From the human T2T-CHM13v2.0 reference genome, Homo sapiens: 64,000 bases of DNA. Location: NCBI RefSeq assembly GCF_009914755.1, contig NC_060940.1; one strand, written 5' to 3'. Below are positions 1,880 to 63,385 of this stretch, in pieces. The notes beneath the pieces were generated by a model that was given only the letters and a program-made list of their open reading frames with translations, was not told the DNA's origin and searched no databases. The first letter of the stretch is position 1. Each line of letters begins with the position of its first letter. The position numbers were made by a program, and so were the translations under genes.

Positions 1880-7100
<5,221 letters not shown>

Positions 7101-7171
7101 GCAAGATACAAGAGGAACCCTCCTCCCTGCTCCCACTCAGGGAACTGATTTGGAGCTGCCTCCTAAGGGAG

Positions 7172-8203
7172 CAGTGGTGTCCTCAGTGCCCCTTGGTGTC
7201 CTCACTGCTCCCTGGTTTCCTGAGCACCCCCTGGTGTCCTGAGTGCCCCCCTGGGGTTCTGAGCACCCCTGGTGGTTCTGAGCACACCCTAGTGGTTCTG
7301 AACCACCTGGTGTCCCGATCGTCCCCGGTGGTTCTGAGTGCCTCCTCATGTCCTGAGTGCTCCCTAGTGGTTCTGAGTCCCCTGGTTTCCTGAGTACCCC
7401 CTGGTGGTTCTGAGCACCCCCTGGTGTCCTGAGCGCCCCCTGGTGTCCTCAAAACCCCCTAGTGGTTCTGAGCCCCCTGGGGTCCTAAGATCCCCCTAGT
7501 GGATCTGAGCATCCCCTGGGGTCCTGAGGGCCCCCTCGTGGTTCTGAGCACACCCTAGTGGTTCTGAGACCCCTGGTGTCCTGAGCACCTCCTGGTGGTT
7601 CTGAGATCCCCCTGGTGTCTTGATTGCCCTTTGGTGTTTCTGAGCTCCCCCTAGTGTCCTGAGGGCTCCCTGGTGTCTCCAGTGTCCCCTGGTGGTTCTG
7701 AGTGACCCCCACCAAGTGTCCTGAGTGCCCCCTGGTGGTTCTGAGCACCCCTGCTATCCTGAGCTACCCCTCACCACAGTGTCTGGAGTGCCCCCTGGTG
7801 GTTCTGAGTGACCCCCCCCCCCCCCCAGTGTCCTGAGCGCTCCCTGGTGGTTCTGAGCACCCCTGCTATCCTGAGCTACCCCTCACCACCGTGTCTGGAG
7901 TGCCCCCTGGTGGTTCTGAGTGACCCCCACCCCAGTGTCCTGAGTGCCCCCTGGTGGTTCTGAGCACCCGCTGTTTTCCTGAGGCTCCGCACCCCCAGGT
8001 GGTTCTGAACATCCTTTCTTGTCATCAGTGCCCCATGGTGGTTCTGAGCACCCTCTGGTGGTTTTGAGTGCCCCCTTGTGTTCTGAGCGCCCCCTGGTGG
8101 TTTTGAGTAACCCATGGTGTCCTGAGCACCCCCTGGTGTCCTGAGCATCTCCTGATGGTTCTTAGCGCCCCCTGATGTCCTGAGCACCCCCTGGTGGTTC
8201 TGA
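7172..8203 (-). repeat. ~19-20-bp GC-rich minisatellite (~50 units), each unit a CTCF-motif variant
   Basis: Unit CTGAGYRCCCCCTGGTG(G)TY. Reverse complement is CCACCAGGGGGCRC. Exact cores at 7725-7738, 7788-7801, 7900-7913, 7944-7957 and 8087-8100. Confidence 0.9.
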
Positions 8204-8245
8204 GAAGCATCTACCAGGCAGTCCCCTCCTGTCCCCCTGCAGGGA

Positions 8246-8284
8246 GGTTGGTGTCTGAGCTCACTCAGATGTCCCCTCACTGTG
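8246..8284 (-). promoter_or_regulatory. 23-bp-spacer recombination signal sequence (V-RSS)
   Basis: Minus strand: heptamer CACAGTG (8284-8278), exactly 23-nt spacer, nonamer ACACCAACC (8254-8246). Confidence 0.9.
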
Positions 8285-8710
8285 TCCCTCAAAGTAATAC
8301 ACGGACTTTTCCTGAGCTCTCAGGTTAATCATCTTAAAAGAGAATCTCCTGAACTGAGTGTATTTGAGGATTGTTAATCATCTTTTTACTCAAGGAGAGT
8401 CCCACTGAGAACTTCCATTTGAATTATTGTTATTACCCACACCCACCCCTGTCATGAAGCCTGCTGGATCAAGCTTATGCTGTTTTCAGTGAAAGTGAAT
8501 CCAGAGGCTTTGCAGAAAAGGCAGAATTCCTGGTCTGTAGTATTTCTCTGTCTGACTCCGTTAGTTAACGTCACAGGGGACTTCTGCAAACACAGAGGCA
8601 ACAGACTGAGAACAGCCCCACCTTTGAGCAGCCACAGCAGGGCCTGATCCACGGGGAACCTGGATATTGAGAGTGATGACAAGAGAAGCCCAGATCAGCA
8701 CAGACCCCAT
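8285..8710 (-). pseudogene. IGHV clan III pseudogene orphon (probably IGHV(III)-13-1-like)
   Basis: Leader ATG at 8710 (MGSVLIWASLV), intron, acceptor tttgcag at 8584. Translates FCKASGFTFT...IQQAS* with an in-frame TGA in FR2. Ends VYYFEG (conserved Cys lost) directly before the RSS. Confidence 0.85.
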
Positions 8711-8784
8711 GGTGTGGACACTAAGGAGGGCACAGATGTGGGGTGGCTCCTCACCAGGATCTACAGGAACAGGGGATGAGCTAC

Positions 8785-8817
8785 TTTTCATTTGCAGAGG
8801 AGGGGCTTCATTTCCAT
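8785..8817 (-). promoter_or_regulatory. Degenerate VH3-type promoter
   Basis: Mutated octamer ATGGAAAT (8817-8810), 18 nt, then ATGAAAA TATA-like box (8791-8785), the VH3 promoter spacing. Confidence 0.7.
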
Positions 8818-9225
8818 GTCTTTCTCCCTGGGGACATGAGTGCACTGCTCAGCAGGCCTCTTCCCATCTCTGTCTCTGGATTCCAGGGAGGGCAGGGTCA
8901 AAGGATTCCTGGGACTGGATGTTCAGGGTTGATCTGCCCATTACTCTTTTTTTTCTCGTATGTGGACCCCTATAGGGTATCTTTATAGTATCAATATTTA
9001 TCAACAAATAGGTACAGTAAACAAATAAAAATAAACCTTGCCCAGAGGAAATGGACTCCTGCCTGTAGGCTGTGCAATTAGAGCTGTAAAGGACTGTCTT
9101 CTACAATAAAGGAAAGTCTTCAGTTAGAATTTTAAAAATGACAATTTCTACAAACTATCAGAGCTGGAGTCCATAATTACCACTATCCTAAGCTCATCTT
9201 GCCACATAACTGTTTGTTGTCAGCT

Positions 9226-9440
9226 ATATGTGCTTGTCTGAGGAAAAAGTCAATGTGGGGACATGTGTGCTTATCTGAGGGAAGAGTTCACATGAAGACA
9301 GGGGTGCTTGTCTGAGGGAAGAGTCAACCTGAGGATGCGTTTGTCTGAGGGAAAGGTCCACGTGGGGACAGGTGTGGGCATTGTCTGATGGTAAATGCCC
9401 ATTCAGAGACGGTGTGTGCCTGGACTGAGCTGAAGTTTGA
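9226..9440. repeat. Degenerate ~37-bp tandem repeat (~6 units)
   Basis: Recurring tgcttgtctgagggaa(g)agtc; tctga/actga anchors at 9237, 9274, 9311, 9344, 9384 and 9424. Confidence 0.75.
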
Positions 9441-44278: not shown

Positions 44279-44375
44279 CTGACCCCGGGTCACCAGGGGG
44301 CACTGTCCTGCCAATGTTGGGCAGGAGGTACTCAATGTTGGGCACTGCCTGAGGCTCCTTGCTGCCCACAGGGGC
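44279..44375 (-). pseudogene. Exon, 97 nt: [32 protein letters not shown]
   Basis: tcgcag|GCCCCT...TCAG|gtgagc. Confidence 0.92.
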
Positions 44376-62928: not shown

Positions 62929-63059
62929 CTTTGCTCCCTGCGGGCAGGTCCTGAGTCCTGAGGCCACGTGCCGCACTCTGCTTGAGGAACTCAGACTTGA
63001 GGCCCCCCAGGCCGCGAGAGCCTTTGGGGGAGGAATCAGCTTTGGGCCCAGAGCTATGG
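62929..63059 (-). pseudogene. ARHGAP23-like exon, 131 nt: [43 protein letters not shown]
   Basis: acacag|CCATAG...AAAG|gtagga; phases match neighbouring exons. Confidence 0.9.
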
Positions 63060-63323
63060 CTGTGTAGGAAAAAGGGGGAGAGGAGAGGTCTTCACTTGGG
63101 GTGGCCAAGCAGGCCACCCACCCTGGCCTCCTGCCCCTCGGGACATCCCCTCCACCCTGAGGCAATGCCTCCATGCCAAACTGCAGCCTGGAGACCCTGG
63201 ATACCCTGGATACCCCTTTCCCCAGCAGAGGGCAGCCCTGGAGGTGGTCCAGGAAGACATCCTCTGCCTTCAGCCCCCTACCACCCCCACAGAGGAGACT
63301 GCTCCATGAGGGCTAGGCCTCAC

Positions 63324-63385
63324 CTCACTTTGCGATAATCATTAAGCTTCTTGCTGATCAGAGCTTGGTTGGCACAGCCGGGGTC
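63324..63385 (-). pseudogene. ARHGAP23-like exon, 62 nt: [20 protein letters not shown](S)
   Basis: cttcag|GACCCC...GTGAG|gtgagg. Confidence 0.9.

What the first reader, a model, noticed from the sequence alone, without database searches (positions are those of the whole stretch)
7172..8203. 1-kb tandem array of ~50 co-oriented CTCF motifs next to a V-gene RSS (possible amplified loop-extrusion barrier)
Seen: starting ~45 bp beyond the RSS nonamer, a 19-20-bp unit repeats for ~1 kb. Its minus strand is CCACCAGGGGGCRC, the CTCF core consensus. There are five exact cores and dozens of near matches, all on the V-gene strand, which points toward D-J-C in the native IGH geometry. Established: single RSS-proximal CTCF elements of mouse D-proximal VH genes (e.g. 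VH81X) impede cohesin extrusion and license RAG use. Inference: here that single element has been expanded by minisatellite turnover into a superanchor-like array. Many units have lost the CpG (gtgccccc/gcaccccc), so they could bind CTCF regardless of methylation. Copy number could act as a heritable dial on insulation strength in the orphon and on V usage in the native IGH homolog.
Basis: partly seen in the sequence, partly recalled or inferred. Interest (0 to 1): 0.82.

Follow-up and report, generated by a model that had tools for sequence, protein, structure and literature searches.

The report
CTCF-motif minisatellite beside a VH pseudogene
A 1-kb run of about 53 short repeats, each descended from the single CTCF-type site that normally follows an antibody V gene's recombination signal, sits beside a dead V gene copy on chromosome 16; it looks like a decaying copy of a repeat family native to the antibody heavy-chain locus, not a proven chromatin barrier.

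Summary
The array is real: 7175-8204, about 53 units of 19-20 bp, starting 48 bp past the RSS nonamer of a minus-strand V gene. The title over-counts. Five units match the 15-base CTCF core exactly, 13 within one mismatch and 25 within two, all on the V strand. Four of the five exact cores are copies within one 112-bp higher-order repeat.

The V gene is a decayed VH3-like (clan III) pseudogene. The array is a family trait, not an orphon novelty. Ten native chr14 pseudogene loci carry it, including about 105 units below IGHVIII-2-1, as do chr15 and chr16 copies. The native counterpart is IGHVIII-13-1.

The first unit aligns with the single core-like element 21-45 bp past the nonamer of IGHV3/IGHV4 genes.

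Function is untested, and the sequence leans neutral. CpG observed/expected is 0.11, and decay hits core positions 12-13 hardest. CTCF-contact positions are no better kept than linker positions in any of 11 arrays. Every host gene is a pseudogene, and chr16 has no D-J partner. A 2023 population study found no tandem repeat as a lead gene-usage variant.

Best reading: a CBE-derived minisatellite with latent, sterically limited CTCF capacity.

The parts
7175..8204 (-). Minisatellite of about 53 units of 19-20 bp. Minus-strand dimer consensus: AACCACCAGGGGGCGCTCAG + GACACCAGGGGGCGCTCAG. There are 5 exact, 8 one-mismatch and 12 two-mismatch matches to the 15-base CTCF core, all on the minus strand.
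   Evidence: TRF rows; IUPAC scans; unit tiling and wraparound alignment
7673..7983 (-). 112-bp higher-order repeat inside the array (2.9 copies, 88% matches). It holds 4 of the 5 exact cores and a run of 15 C at 7812-7826.
   Evidence: TRF row; positions of exact cores; sequence
8205..8245 (-). Unique spacer between the RSS nonamer and the array (reads CTCCCTGCAGGGGGACAGGAGGGGACTGCCTGGTAGATGCTT on the minus strand, running a few bases past both stated ends: it starts in the nonamer's last C and ends in the array). It is shared by all native family members, and its first part by IGHV3/IGHV4 genes.
8246..8284 (-). 23-bp-spacer RSS of the pseudogene: heptamer CACAGTG (8278-8284), 23-bp spacer, nonamer ACACCAACC (8246-8254).
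8285..8710 (-). Decayed VH3-like (clan III) V pseudogene, not annotated by RefSeq. Leader-like exon about 8660-8710, intron, V exon about 8285-8583. At least 4 in-frame stops in the V exon and TGT changed to TTT at the second cysteine. Only 73-82% identical to IGHV3-72, in patches.
   Evidence: nearest native gene IGHVIII-13-1

Best explanation
This is a GC-rich minisatellite. It arose once, in the ancestor of the IGHV(III) clan-III pseudogene family, by tandem amplification of the single CTCF-type element that lies just 3' of the RSS in VH3/VH4-type genes. Block duplications spread the module (array, RSS, V pseudogene, and in at least some copies an upstream 37-bp repeat) through the 14q32 IGH locus. 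A block colinear with IGHV3-11 to IGHV3-15 then carried it to 16p11.2, where later segmental duplications copied it four times. In this window the array is a passenger. It changes length by slippage or unequal exchange and loses its one CpG per unit by deamination, which implies germline methylation. About a quarter of the units still carry a good core. If the DNA were open and unmethylated, those units could hold several CTCF molecules, all facing one way. A 19-20-bp period cannot take one CTCF per unit, so the ceiling is roughly 8-11 good sites, or 13-19 including weak ones. Shown here: the anatomy, the homology, the family distribution, the decay pattern and the length turnover. Inferred: neutrality, the methylation history and the binding ceiling.
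For: Array anatomy. Family trait: a whole-genome search with 6900-9000 finds the module at 3 more chr16 sites (87-91%), at chr14 IGHVIII-13-1 (83%), at further IGHV(III) loci, and on chr15. TRF finds the array in 10 of the 12 native chr14 pseudogene loci fetched: 163 bp to 2.1 kb, with IGHVIII-2-1 at about 105 units and 15/26/26 hits at 0/1/2 mismatches. The two without it, IGHVIII-25-1 and IGHVIII-11-1, match only the 5' part of the V region. All 10 share the same spacer between RSS and array. An exact two-unit pattern occurs 28 times in the genome, all in chr14 IGH (10), chr15 (4) or chr16 (14) copies, with 0 for the reversed control. Origin from the single element: (15 of 17 IGHV3/IGHV4 genes; CAGGGGG invariant in 8 of 8 aligned rows). 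Decay: CpG observed/expected is 0.11, against 0.41 worked out by hand (no call) for an intact 20-base unit. After AGGGGG the next two bases are CG 3, TG 4, CA 5 and other 8. No selection signal: the match rate at the 7 CTCF-contact positions is 0.80, against 0.84 for linker positions and 0.49 at the CpG positions (core 12-13). In all 11 arrays tested the contact positions are no better kept than the linker. The orphon scores 5/8/12 and its native counterpart 6/4/8, so they are equally decayed. Turnover: flanks 99.3-99.9% identical, arrays 892-1368 bp. Context: no RefSeq functional element within 5 kb of any of the 10 chr16 arrays. Every host gene is a pseudogene.
Against: The dominant unit carries the most preferred 15 bases of the canonical CTCF motif exactly. 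Four of the five exact cores here are the CpG-free form CCACCAGGGGGCACT. Strong motifs like these are often occupied in open chromatin, though that is recalled knowledge and comes from no call. The arrays have persisted in at least 10 native copies that have diverged to about 70-78% identity, which could reflect maintenance. The family's single-copy counterpart is kept in 15 of 17 sampled IGHV3/IGHV4 genes. Equal conservation of contact and linker positions is a weak test, because homogenisation within arrays blurs site-wise selection and nearly the whole unit is motif. No occupancy, methylation or Hi-C data could be consulted, so 'not a working barrier' is not shown.
Confidence: 0.65

Rival explanations
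1. The array is a working, amplified loop-extrusion barrier: many co-oriented CTCF molecules stall cohesin coming from the side the V strand points to, and copy number sets insulation strength. On chr16 it would act as an ectopic boundary; in the native IGH arrays it would influence V usage.
For: Motif density and strict co-orientation. Descent from the RSS-proximal element of IGHV3/IGHV4 genes. In mouse, RSS-proximal CBEs govern proximal VH use, and an inserted array of 20 CBEs re-drew Igh loops and reduced recombination over 355 kb (review PMC7930373, passages). A synthetic IGH locus uses 20 tandem CBE motifs as its 3' anchor (PMC13261652, passages). Gene-usage SNVs are enriched in CTCF-bound elements of human IGH, and a three-allele tandem-repeat SV lies between IGHV1-2 and IGHV1-3, the interval that holds the 2.1-kb IGHVIII-2-1 array (PMC10362067, passages). 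Array length differs between near-identical chr16 copies.
Against: There are no occupancy data. Only 13 of about 53 units lie within one mismatch, and at most 8-11 of those could be filled at 38-50-bp spacing. CpG decay falls on core position 12, and contact positions are not favoured over linker positions. The arrays sit only at pseudogenes, whereas in mouse the proximal pseudogenes lack CBEs. chr16 has no D-J-C partner. In this window no plus-strand core within 2 mismatches lies below 7172 to converge with it. The 2023 study found no tandem repeat or small SV as a lead usage variant.
Confidence: 0.2
2. The relevant property is DNA structure, not CTCF. The V-sense strand has G4-G5 runs every 19-20 bases, so read-through transcription from the V promoter could form R-loops or long-loop G-quadruplexes. 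That would make the array unstable and recombinogenic, as in other GC-rich minisatellites.
For: The array has 37 runs of four or more G on the minus strand against 3 on the plus strand. Length changes between near-identical paralogues. Higher-order repeats of 95 and 112 bp show recent unequal exchange.
Against: Loops of about 14-15 bases are long for stable quadruplexes (recalled). No transcript is annotated over the pseudogene. This explains instability, not origin, and it is compatible with the best explanation. The PRDM9 13-mer is absent from the array: 0 of the 11 window matches fall in it.
Confidence: 0.08
3. The likeness to the CTCF core is a coincidence of a GC-rich repeat and has no link to V-gene CTCF elements.
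For: Many GC-rich minisatellites exist, so some will resemble any GC-rich motif by chance (general knowledge).
Against: The first unit is positionally and sequence-homologous to the single element of IGHV3/IGHV4 genes. The two-unit pattern occurs only in IGHV-derived DNA. The unit consensus equals 15 consecutive bases of the canonical 19-mer.
Confidence: 0.02

Closest known systems
RSS-proximal CTCF-binding elements of D-proximal mouse VH genes (VH81X-CBE type)
   Same: It lies tens of bp 3' of a VH 23-bp RSS, on the V strand, and points toward D-J-C in the native geometry. The array's first unit is homologous to the single human IGHV3/IGHV4 element. The mouse facts come from review PMC7930373 (passages).
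   Different: It is an array of about 53 units, not one site. It is attached to a pseudogene, whereas mouse proximal pseudogenes lack CBEs. This copy is on chr16 with no D-J partner. Binding is untested.
CTCF-binding macrosatellites DXZ4, FIRRE and ICCE (superloop anchors) and the 1q23.3 tRNA/CTCF VNTR
   Same: Tandem, co-oriented CTCF motifs with variable copy number. Contacts at Dxz4 depend on orientation (PMC5899087, PMC6125249 and PMC4041453: search listing and start of abstracts only).
   Different: Those units are kilobases long (for example 7.3 kb at 1q23.3), so each unit can hold its own CTCF. Here the period is 19-20 bp, neighbouring sites overlap, and occupancy is unknown.
Engineered CBE arrays (20 CBEs inserted in mouse Igh; 20-CBE synthetic 3'CBE in SynIgh)
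   Same: Many like-oriented CBEs placed in an IGH locus, with shown effects on loops and V use (PMC13261652, passages).
   Different: Those were designed with full-strength sites; I did not see their spacing. The natural array is degenerate, with 13 of about 53 units within one mismatch.
GC-rich minisatellites / VNTRs
   Same: Unit of 19-20 bp, about 1 kb long, strand-asymmetric G/C, higher-order repeats, and length differences between near-identical copies. The native locus is subtelomeric (PMC2212390, passages).
   Different: The unit is a recognisable regulatory motif with a traceable single-copy ancestor. Allelic variation of this array could not be tested in one genome.
2xCTS clustered CTCF/BORIS sites
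   Same: Closely spaced CTCF motifs (under 100 bp apart) that can be co-occupied by two 11-zinc-finger proteins (PMC5973138, passages).
   Different: Those have two motifs, usually at active promoters or enhancers. Here there are dozens, in unannotated, CpG-depleted duplicated DNA.

Membership tests
CTCF-binding element (CBE) | Match to the CTCF core motif | tested here: met
   Five exact, 8 one-mismatch and 12 two-mismatch matches to the 15-base IUPAC core, all on the minus strand. About 28 of roughly 53 units fail at 2 mismatches or fewer. The IUPAC string was recalled; the canonical 19-mer was seen. No PWM or FIMO scan was run.
CTCF-binding element (CBE) | CTCF occupancy in cells (ChIP, CUT&RUN or footprint) | not testable with these tools
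   No read data or tracks are available. No RefSeq functional element lies within 5 kb.
CTCF-binding element (CBE) | Cohesin retention or a loop anchor with a convergent partner | not testable with these tools
   No contact maps. In the window, no plus-strand core within 2 mismatches lies at coordinates below 7172.
RSS-proximal VH CBE (mouse VH81X type) | Lies just 3' of a VH RSS, on the V strand | tested here: met
   The first unit is 48 bp past the nonamer on the V strand.
RSS-proximal VH CBE (mouse VH81X type) | Serves a recombining V gene in a locus with D-J-C | tested here: not met
   The host is a pseudogene with stops in a chr16 orphon block. The native counterpart IGHVIII-13-1 is also annotated as a pseudogene.
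RSS-proximal VH CBE (mouse VH81X type) | Single element | tested here: not met
   About 53 tandem units.
Minisatellite / VNTR | Head-to-tail units of 10-100 bp forming an array of 0.5 kb or more | tested here: met
   TRF: 7175-8204, periods 19, 39, 95 and 112.
Minisatellite / VNTR | Copy number varies between alleles | tested here: inconclusive
   One haploid reference only. Paralogues with flanks 99.3-99.9% identical have arrays of 892, 1039, 1367 and 1368 bp.
CTCF macrosatellite superanchor (DXZ4 / FIRRE / ICCE) | Unit long enough for one CTCF per unit | tested here: not met
   The period is 19-20 bp. At spacing of 38 bp or more, at most 11 of the 13 good sites fit; at 50 bp or more, 8. The footprint size is recalled, not from a call.
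CTCF macrosatellite superanchor (DXZ4 / FIRRE / ICCE) | CTCF-dependent long-range contacts | not testable with these tools
   No Hi-C or Micro-C data.

The most novel reading that the evidence does not exclude
The IGHV(III) arrays are a natural set of multi-CTCF, one-way extrusion brakes. About a dozen of them (0.16-2.1 kb, up to about 105 units) lie on average roughly 80 kb apart through the human VH cluster. Each is tethered to a dead V gene, faces D-J-C, and varies in length. On this reading their copy number tunes how long RAG scanning dwells in each V sub-domain, so it shapes the inherited repertoire. The transposed chr16 and chr15 copies would be ectopic boundaries inside pericentromeric duplications. 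The chr16 window would then be a ready-made 'no V(D)J' control for the native arrays.
Probability: 0.15. Interest if true: 0.75.

Novelty: new variant of a known kind. Interest (0 to 1): 0.45.

Why it matters
Control of V(D)J recombination by CTCF and cohesin is worked out in mouse. [quoted passage not shown] This work shows three things. Sampled human IGHV3/IGHV4 genes carry the same kind of RSS-proximal element as the mouse genes. One old pseudogene family turned that element into arrays of up to about 105 units spread through the locus. Copies of those arrays also sit on chr15 and chr16. If the arrays bind CTCF, they are natural counterparts of the engineered 20-CBE arrays, and they are length-variable, so long-read footprinting plus repertoire genetics could test them directly. 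If they do not bind, they show how a strong-looking motif array can be an inert, methylated minisatellite, which is a caution for motif-based boundary prediction in newly assembled duplications. The window's own copy is most likely a decaying passenger.

Tried and rejected
PRDM9 hotspot motif as the driver of instability: the 13-mer CCNCCNTNNCCNC (recalled) has 11 matches in the window and none in 7172-8203. Rejected.

Chance resemblance to CTCF: rejected by positional homology and by the IGHV-only distribution of the two-unit pattern.

Orphon-specific expansion: rejected. The native IGHVIII-13-1 array fills an interval of about 1040 bp, against 1039 bp here, and 10 native loci have arrays.

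Whole-locus scan of chr14 IGHV for all CTCF cores and arrays: not possible. The native picture therefore rests on search hits, their loci, and 15 short cuts. V families other than 3, 4 and III are thinly sampled. In one search, of 10 genes examined, IGHV3-72 (exact), IGHV4-80P (1 mismatch) and IGHVIII-76-1 (array) had hits. IGHV3-74, IGHV2-70, IGHV1-67P, IGHV1-68P, IGHV3-76P, IGHV3-79P and IGHV5-78P had none within 260 bp.

A selection test by per-position conservation gave no signal. It is weak, for the reasons given under evidence against.

Literature. Searches of the held library found no paper describing these arrays. I searched for the unit string on either strand (0 papers hold either 16-18-base unit string), for six IGHVIII gene names (5 papers, all incidental by title and start of abstract), for CTCF with minisatellite, VNTR and IGHV, for CTCF with human IGH, RSS and CBE, for CTCF-motif tandem repeats, and for orphon with 16p11 and CTCF. 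Most subscription-journal papers are not held, so this is not proof of absence. The primary mouse VH81X-CBE paper was not held, so I relied on the review.

Supplementary Fig. 6b of PMC10362067 could show whether the IGHV1-2 to IGHV1-3 tandem-repeat SV is the IGHVIII-2-1 array. Supplements are closed. I could not map the hg38 cCRE that the paper highlights between IGHV3-66 and IGHV1-69 onto T2T. That interval holds the IGHVIII-67-3 and IGHVIII-67-4 arrays.

Other primates and mouse could not be searched, because no such genomes are on hand.
Full report
OBSERVATION. Tandem Repeats Finder reports 7175-8204, with nested periods of 19, 39, 95 and 112 bp. A wraparound alignment to the 20+19-base dimer gives about 53 units. 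Read on the minus strand, the units are AACCACCAGGGGGCGCTCAG and GACACCAGGGGGCGCTCAG and their variants.

A 15-base IUPAC form of the CTCF core, which I recalled from memory, finds 5 exact matches in the array: 7724, 7787, 7899, 7943 and 8086, all on the minus strand. The rest of the 64 kb holds one. None of 100 shuffles reached 6. Allowing mismatches, the minus strand has 5, 8, 12 and 8 hits at 0, 1, 2 and 3 mismatches. The plus strand has none at 2 or fewer.

The title's 'about 50 CTCF motifs' therefore counts units, not motif-grade sites. Thirteen units lie within one mismatch and 25 within two. Four of the five exact cores sit in a 112-bp higher-order repeat (7673-7983, 2.9 copies, 88% matches), so they are recent duplicates. 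Two preprints print the canonical CTCF motif as TGGCCACCAGGGGGCGCTA (passages). The 20-base unit contains 15 consecutive bases of it.

THE NEIGHBOUR. On the minus strand, just upstream of the array, lies a V gene 3' end. It has heptamer CACAGTG (8278-8284), a 23-bp spacer and nonamer ACACCAACC (8246-8254). The first core-like unit begins 48 bp past the nonamer. The gene is a wreck. In the frame set by TAT TAC it has at least 4 stops in the V exon, the second cysteine codon is TTT, and it matches IGHV3-72 only in patches of 73-82%. RefSeq annotates nothing here. The array is not soft-masked, and no functional element lies within 5 kb.

WHERE ELSE IT OCCURS. A search of the whole reference with 6900-9000 found the same module at three more chr16 sites (87-91% identity). 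It also found it on chr14 at IGHVIII-13-1 (83%) and at IGHVIII-2-1, -26-1, -38-1, -47-1, -67-3, -67-4, -76-1, -82 and IGHV3-57P, plus chr15 and a fragment on chr2.

TRF found the array in 10 of the 12 native chr14 pseudogene loci fetched. The two without it, IGHVIII-25-1 and IGHVIII-11-1, match only the 5' part of the V region. Array sizes run from 163 bp to 2.1 kb. The largest, below IGHVIII-2-1, has about 105 units, with 15, 26 and 26 hits at 0, 1 and 2 mismatches. Two further array-like matches, near IGHVIII-5-2 and at chr14:100,984,342-100,984,817, were not examined. Every hit in every copy lies on the V strand.

All 10 native members share one layout: V end, RSS or its remnant, a conserved spacer of about 45 bp, then the array. 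The heptamer is intact in 3 of the 10. An exact two-unit pattern occurs 28 times in the genome, all in these chr14 (10), chr15 (4) and chr16 (14) copies. The reversed control pattern has 0 matches. So the array is a trait of one old pseudogene family. This is probably the clustered VH3 pseudogene group noted in the 1998 locus paper (PMC2212390, passages), although that paper describes 5'-truncated members and this copy keeps a leader-like exon.

ORIGIN. Among 17 sampled IGHV3/IGHV4 genes, 15 carry one core-like element (2 mismatches or fewer) on the V strand and none on the other strand. In the 13 of these whose heptamer the script found, the element lies 21-45 bp past the nonamer. It is exact in IGHV3-15, 3-49, 3-11 and 3-72. 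IGHV3-13 and IGHV3-74 have none at that threshold. In alignment A1, the first array unit of the window and of IGHVIII-13-1 falls in the same columns as that single element in IGHV4-4, 4-30-2, 3-23, 3-30, 3-15 and 3-11. CAGGGGG is invariant in 8 of 8 rows, and the preceding CCTCCCTGCAGG is shared. Other families looked different in my small sample: no hit within 260 bp for IGHV2-70, IGHV1-67P, IGHV1-68P, IGHV5-78P, IGHV3-76P or IGHV3-79P.

HISTORY OF THIS COPY. The flanks of the four chr16 copies are 99.3-99.9% identical, yet the intervals between those flanks measure 892, 1039 (the window), 1367 and 1368 bp. The chr14 counterpart has flanks 95-97% identical, an interval of about 1040 bp and array identity of only 78%. 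Neighbouring hits show the chr16 block is colinear with chr14 IGHV3-11 to IGHV3-15. The array therefore came with a transposed IGH block, was copied by later segmental duplications, and has kept changing length.

DOES IT LOOK SELECTED FOR CTCF? The array is 62% G+C but has only 11 CpGs, an observed/expected ratio of 0.11. An intact 20-base unit would give 0.41 by my own arithmetic, not by a call. After AGGGGG the next two bases are CG in 3 cases, TG in 4, CA in 5 and other in 8. TG and CA are the two deamination products of a methylated CpG. CA keeps the consensus. TG replaces core position 12, which recalled structural work treats as a contact base.

Per-position match rates tell the same story. 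The CpG positions are the worst kept, at 0.49. The seven contact positions average 0.80 and the linker positions 0.84. In all 11 arrays analysed, the contact positions are no better kept than the linker. The orphon scores 5/8/12 and its native counterpart 6/4/8, so they are equally degraded.

This is the pattern of a germline-methylated, neutrally drifting minisatellite. It does not exclude binding in lymphoid cells. The review I read says CTCF binding to mouse Igh is lymphocyte-specific.

MECHANISTIC LIMITS. Neighbouring cores are 19-20 bp apart, less than a CTCF footprint (a recalled figure of tens of bp). If sites must be at least 38 bp apart, 11 of the 13 good sites fit, or 19 of the 25 including weak ones. 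At 50 bp or more, the numbers are 8 and 13. Closely spaced pairs can be co-occupied (2xCTS, under 100 bp apart; PMC5973138, passages). The array could thus be a multi-CTCF, one-way obstacle at best, with far fewer than 50 molecules. The motif points along the V strand. On chr14 that is toward D-J-C, the same sense as the single elements of the IGHV3/IGHV4 genes sampled. The review describes mouse VH CBEs as convergent with the 3' CBEs.

WHAT THE LITERATURE ADDS. In mouse, proximal functional VH genes have a CBE just 3' of the RSS and nearby pseudogenes lack one. Repairing a pseudogene's CBE made it the most used VH. An inverted array of 20 CBEs changed Igh loops and lowered recombination over 355 kb (PMC7930373, passages). 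A synthetic human IGH locus uses 20 tandem CBE motifs as its 3' anchor and counts 94 CBE motifs among 60 VH modules (PMC13261652, passages).

In people, gene-usage SNVs are enriched in CTCF-bound elements. A three-allele tandem-repeat SV lies between IGHV1-2 and IGHV1-3. However, 'none' of the small SVs or tandem repeats was a lead usage variant (PMC10362067, passages). A preprint counts about 121 CTCF peaks in IGH in one cell line and warns that about a third of the peaks in heterozygous regions fall in unmappable duplicated sequence (10.1101/2024.03.06.582860, passages). That is exactly the problem these arrays pose. I found no paper describing the arrays themselves. The library lacks most subscription journals, and supplements were closed.

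VERDICT. The origin idea is supported. The claim of a working 'superanchor' and a heritable dial is untested, and the sequence evidence leans against it for this chr16 copy. The thing is best called a CBE-derived minisatellite of the IGHV(III) pseudogene family.

It is a new variant of known kinds (RSS-proximal CBE, CTCF tandem arrays, GC-rich VNTR), because the unit is only 19-20 bp and descends visibly from a V-gene regulatory site. Interest is moderate (0.45). The window's copy is probably inert. The native arrays, especially the 2.1-kb array between IGHV1-2 and IGHV1-3, are a concrete target for long-read tests of CTCF control in the human heavy-chain locus.

Noticed in passing
window 9229-9376: A 37-bp tandem repeat (4.1 copies, TRF score 142) lies about 520 bp upstream of the pseudogene's leader-like ATG. 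TRF finds the same repeat upstream of the V in paralogues L005, L007, L008, L011, L012 and L028, so in those copies it belongs to the duplicated module. Its function is unknown.
   Followed up: partly
window 7812-7826: A run of 15 C on the plus strand lies inside one copy of the 112-bp higher-order repeat. The sister copies have shorter C runs mixed with A. It looks like a local slippage product.
   Followed up: no
window 63222-63236 (+): This is the only other exact match to the 15-base CTCF core in the 64 kb. It lies inside an exon row (62929-63059 / 63324-63385 neighbourhood) of the ARHGAP23-like pseudogene LOC124903682. One-mismatch hits occur at 44290 (+) and 57755 (+).
   Followed up: no
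L007 430-2534 (chr14:100,270,452-100,272,556), below IGHVIII-2-1: This is the largest family member: about 105 units, with an 81-bp higher-order repeat (26.5 copies) and a CpG-retaining consensus. It has 15/26/26 core hits at 0/1/2 mismatches. It lies between IGHV1-2 and IGHV1-3, the interval where a published study reports a three-allele tandem-repeat SV. Whether the two are the same was not confirmed.
   Followed up: partly
chr14 interval IGHV3-66 to IGHV1-69D (T2T 100,995,534-101,037,824): The CTCF-bound cCRE highlighted in PMC10362067 for a clique of usage-linked SNVs lies in this interval in hg38. In T2T the interval holds the IGHVIII-67-3 (about 1 kb) and IGHVIII-67-4 (about 0.16 kb) arrays. 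The coordinates could not be mapped between assemblies here.
   Followed up: no
chr16:33,274,945-33,387,773 (around the window): Hits to IGHV3-type 3' ends and to IGHV(III) modules occur in the same order as chr14 IGHV3-11 to IGHV3-15 and beyond. The interval that holds the ARHGAP23-like pseudogene is much longer on chr16. RefSeq annotates only one V segment nearby (LOC124907787), so several orphon V pseudogenes, including this one, are unannotated.
   Followed up: partly
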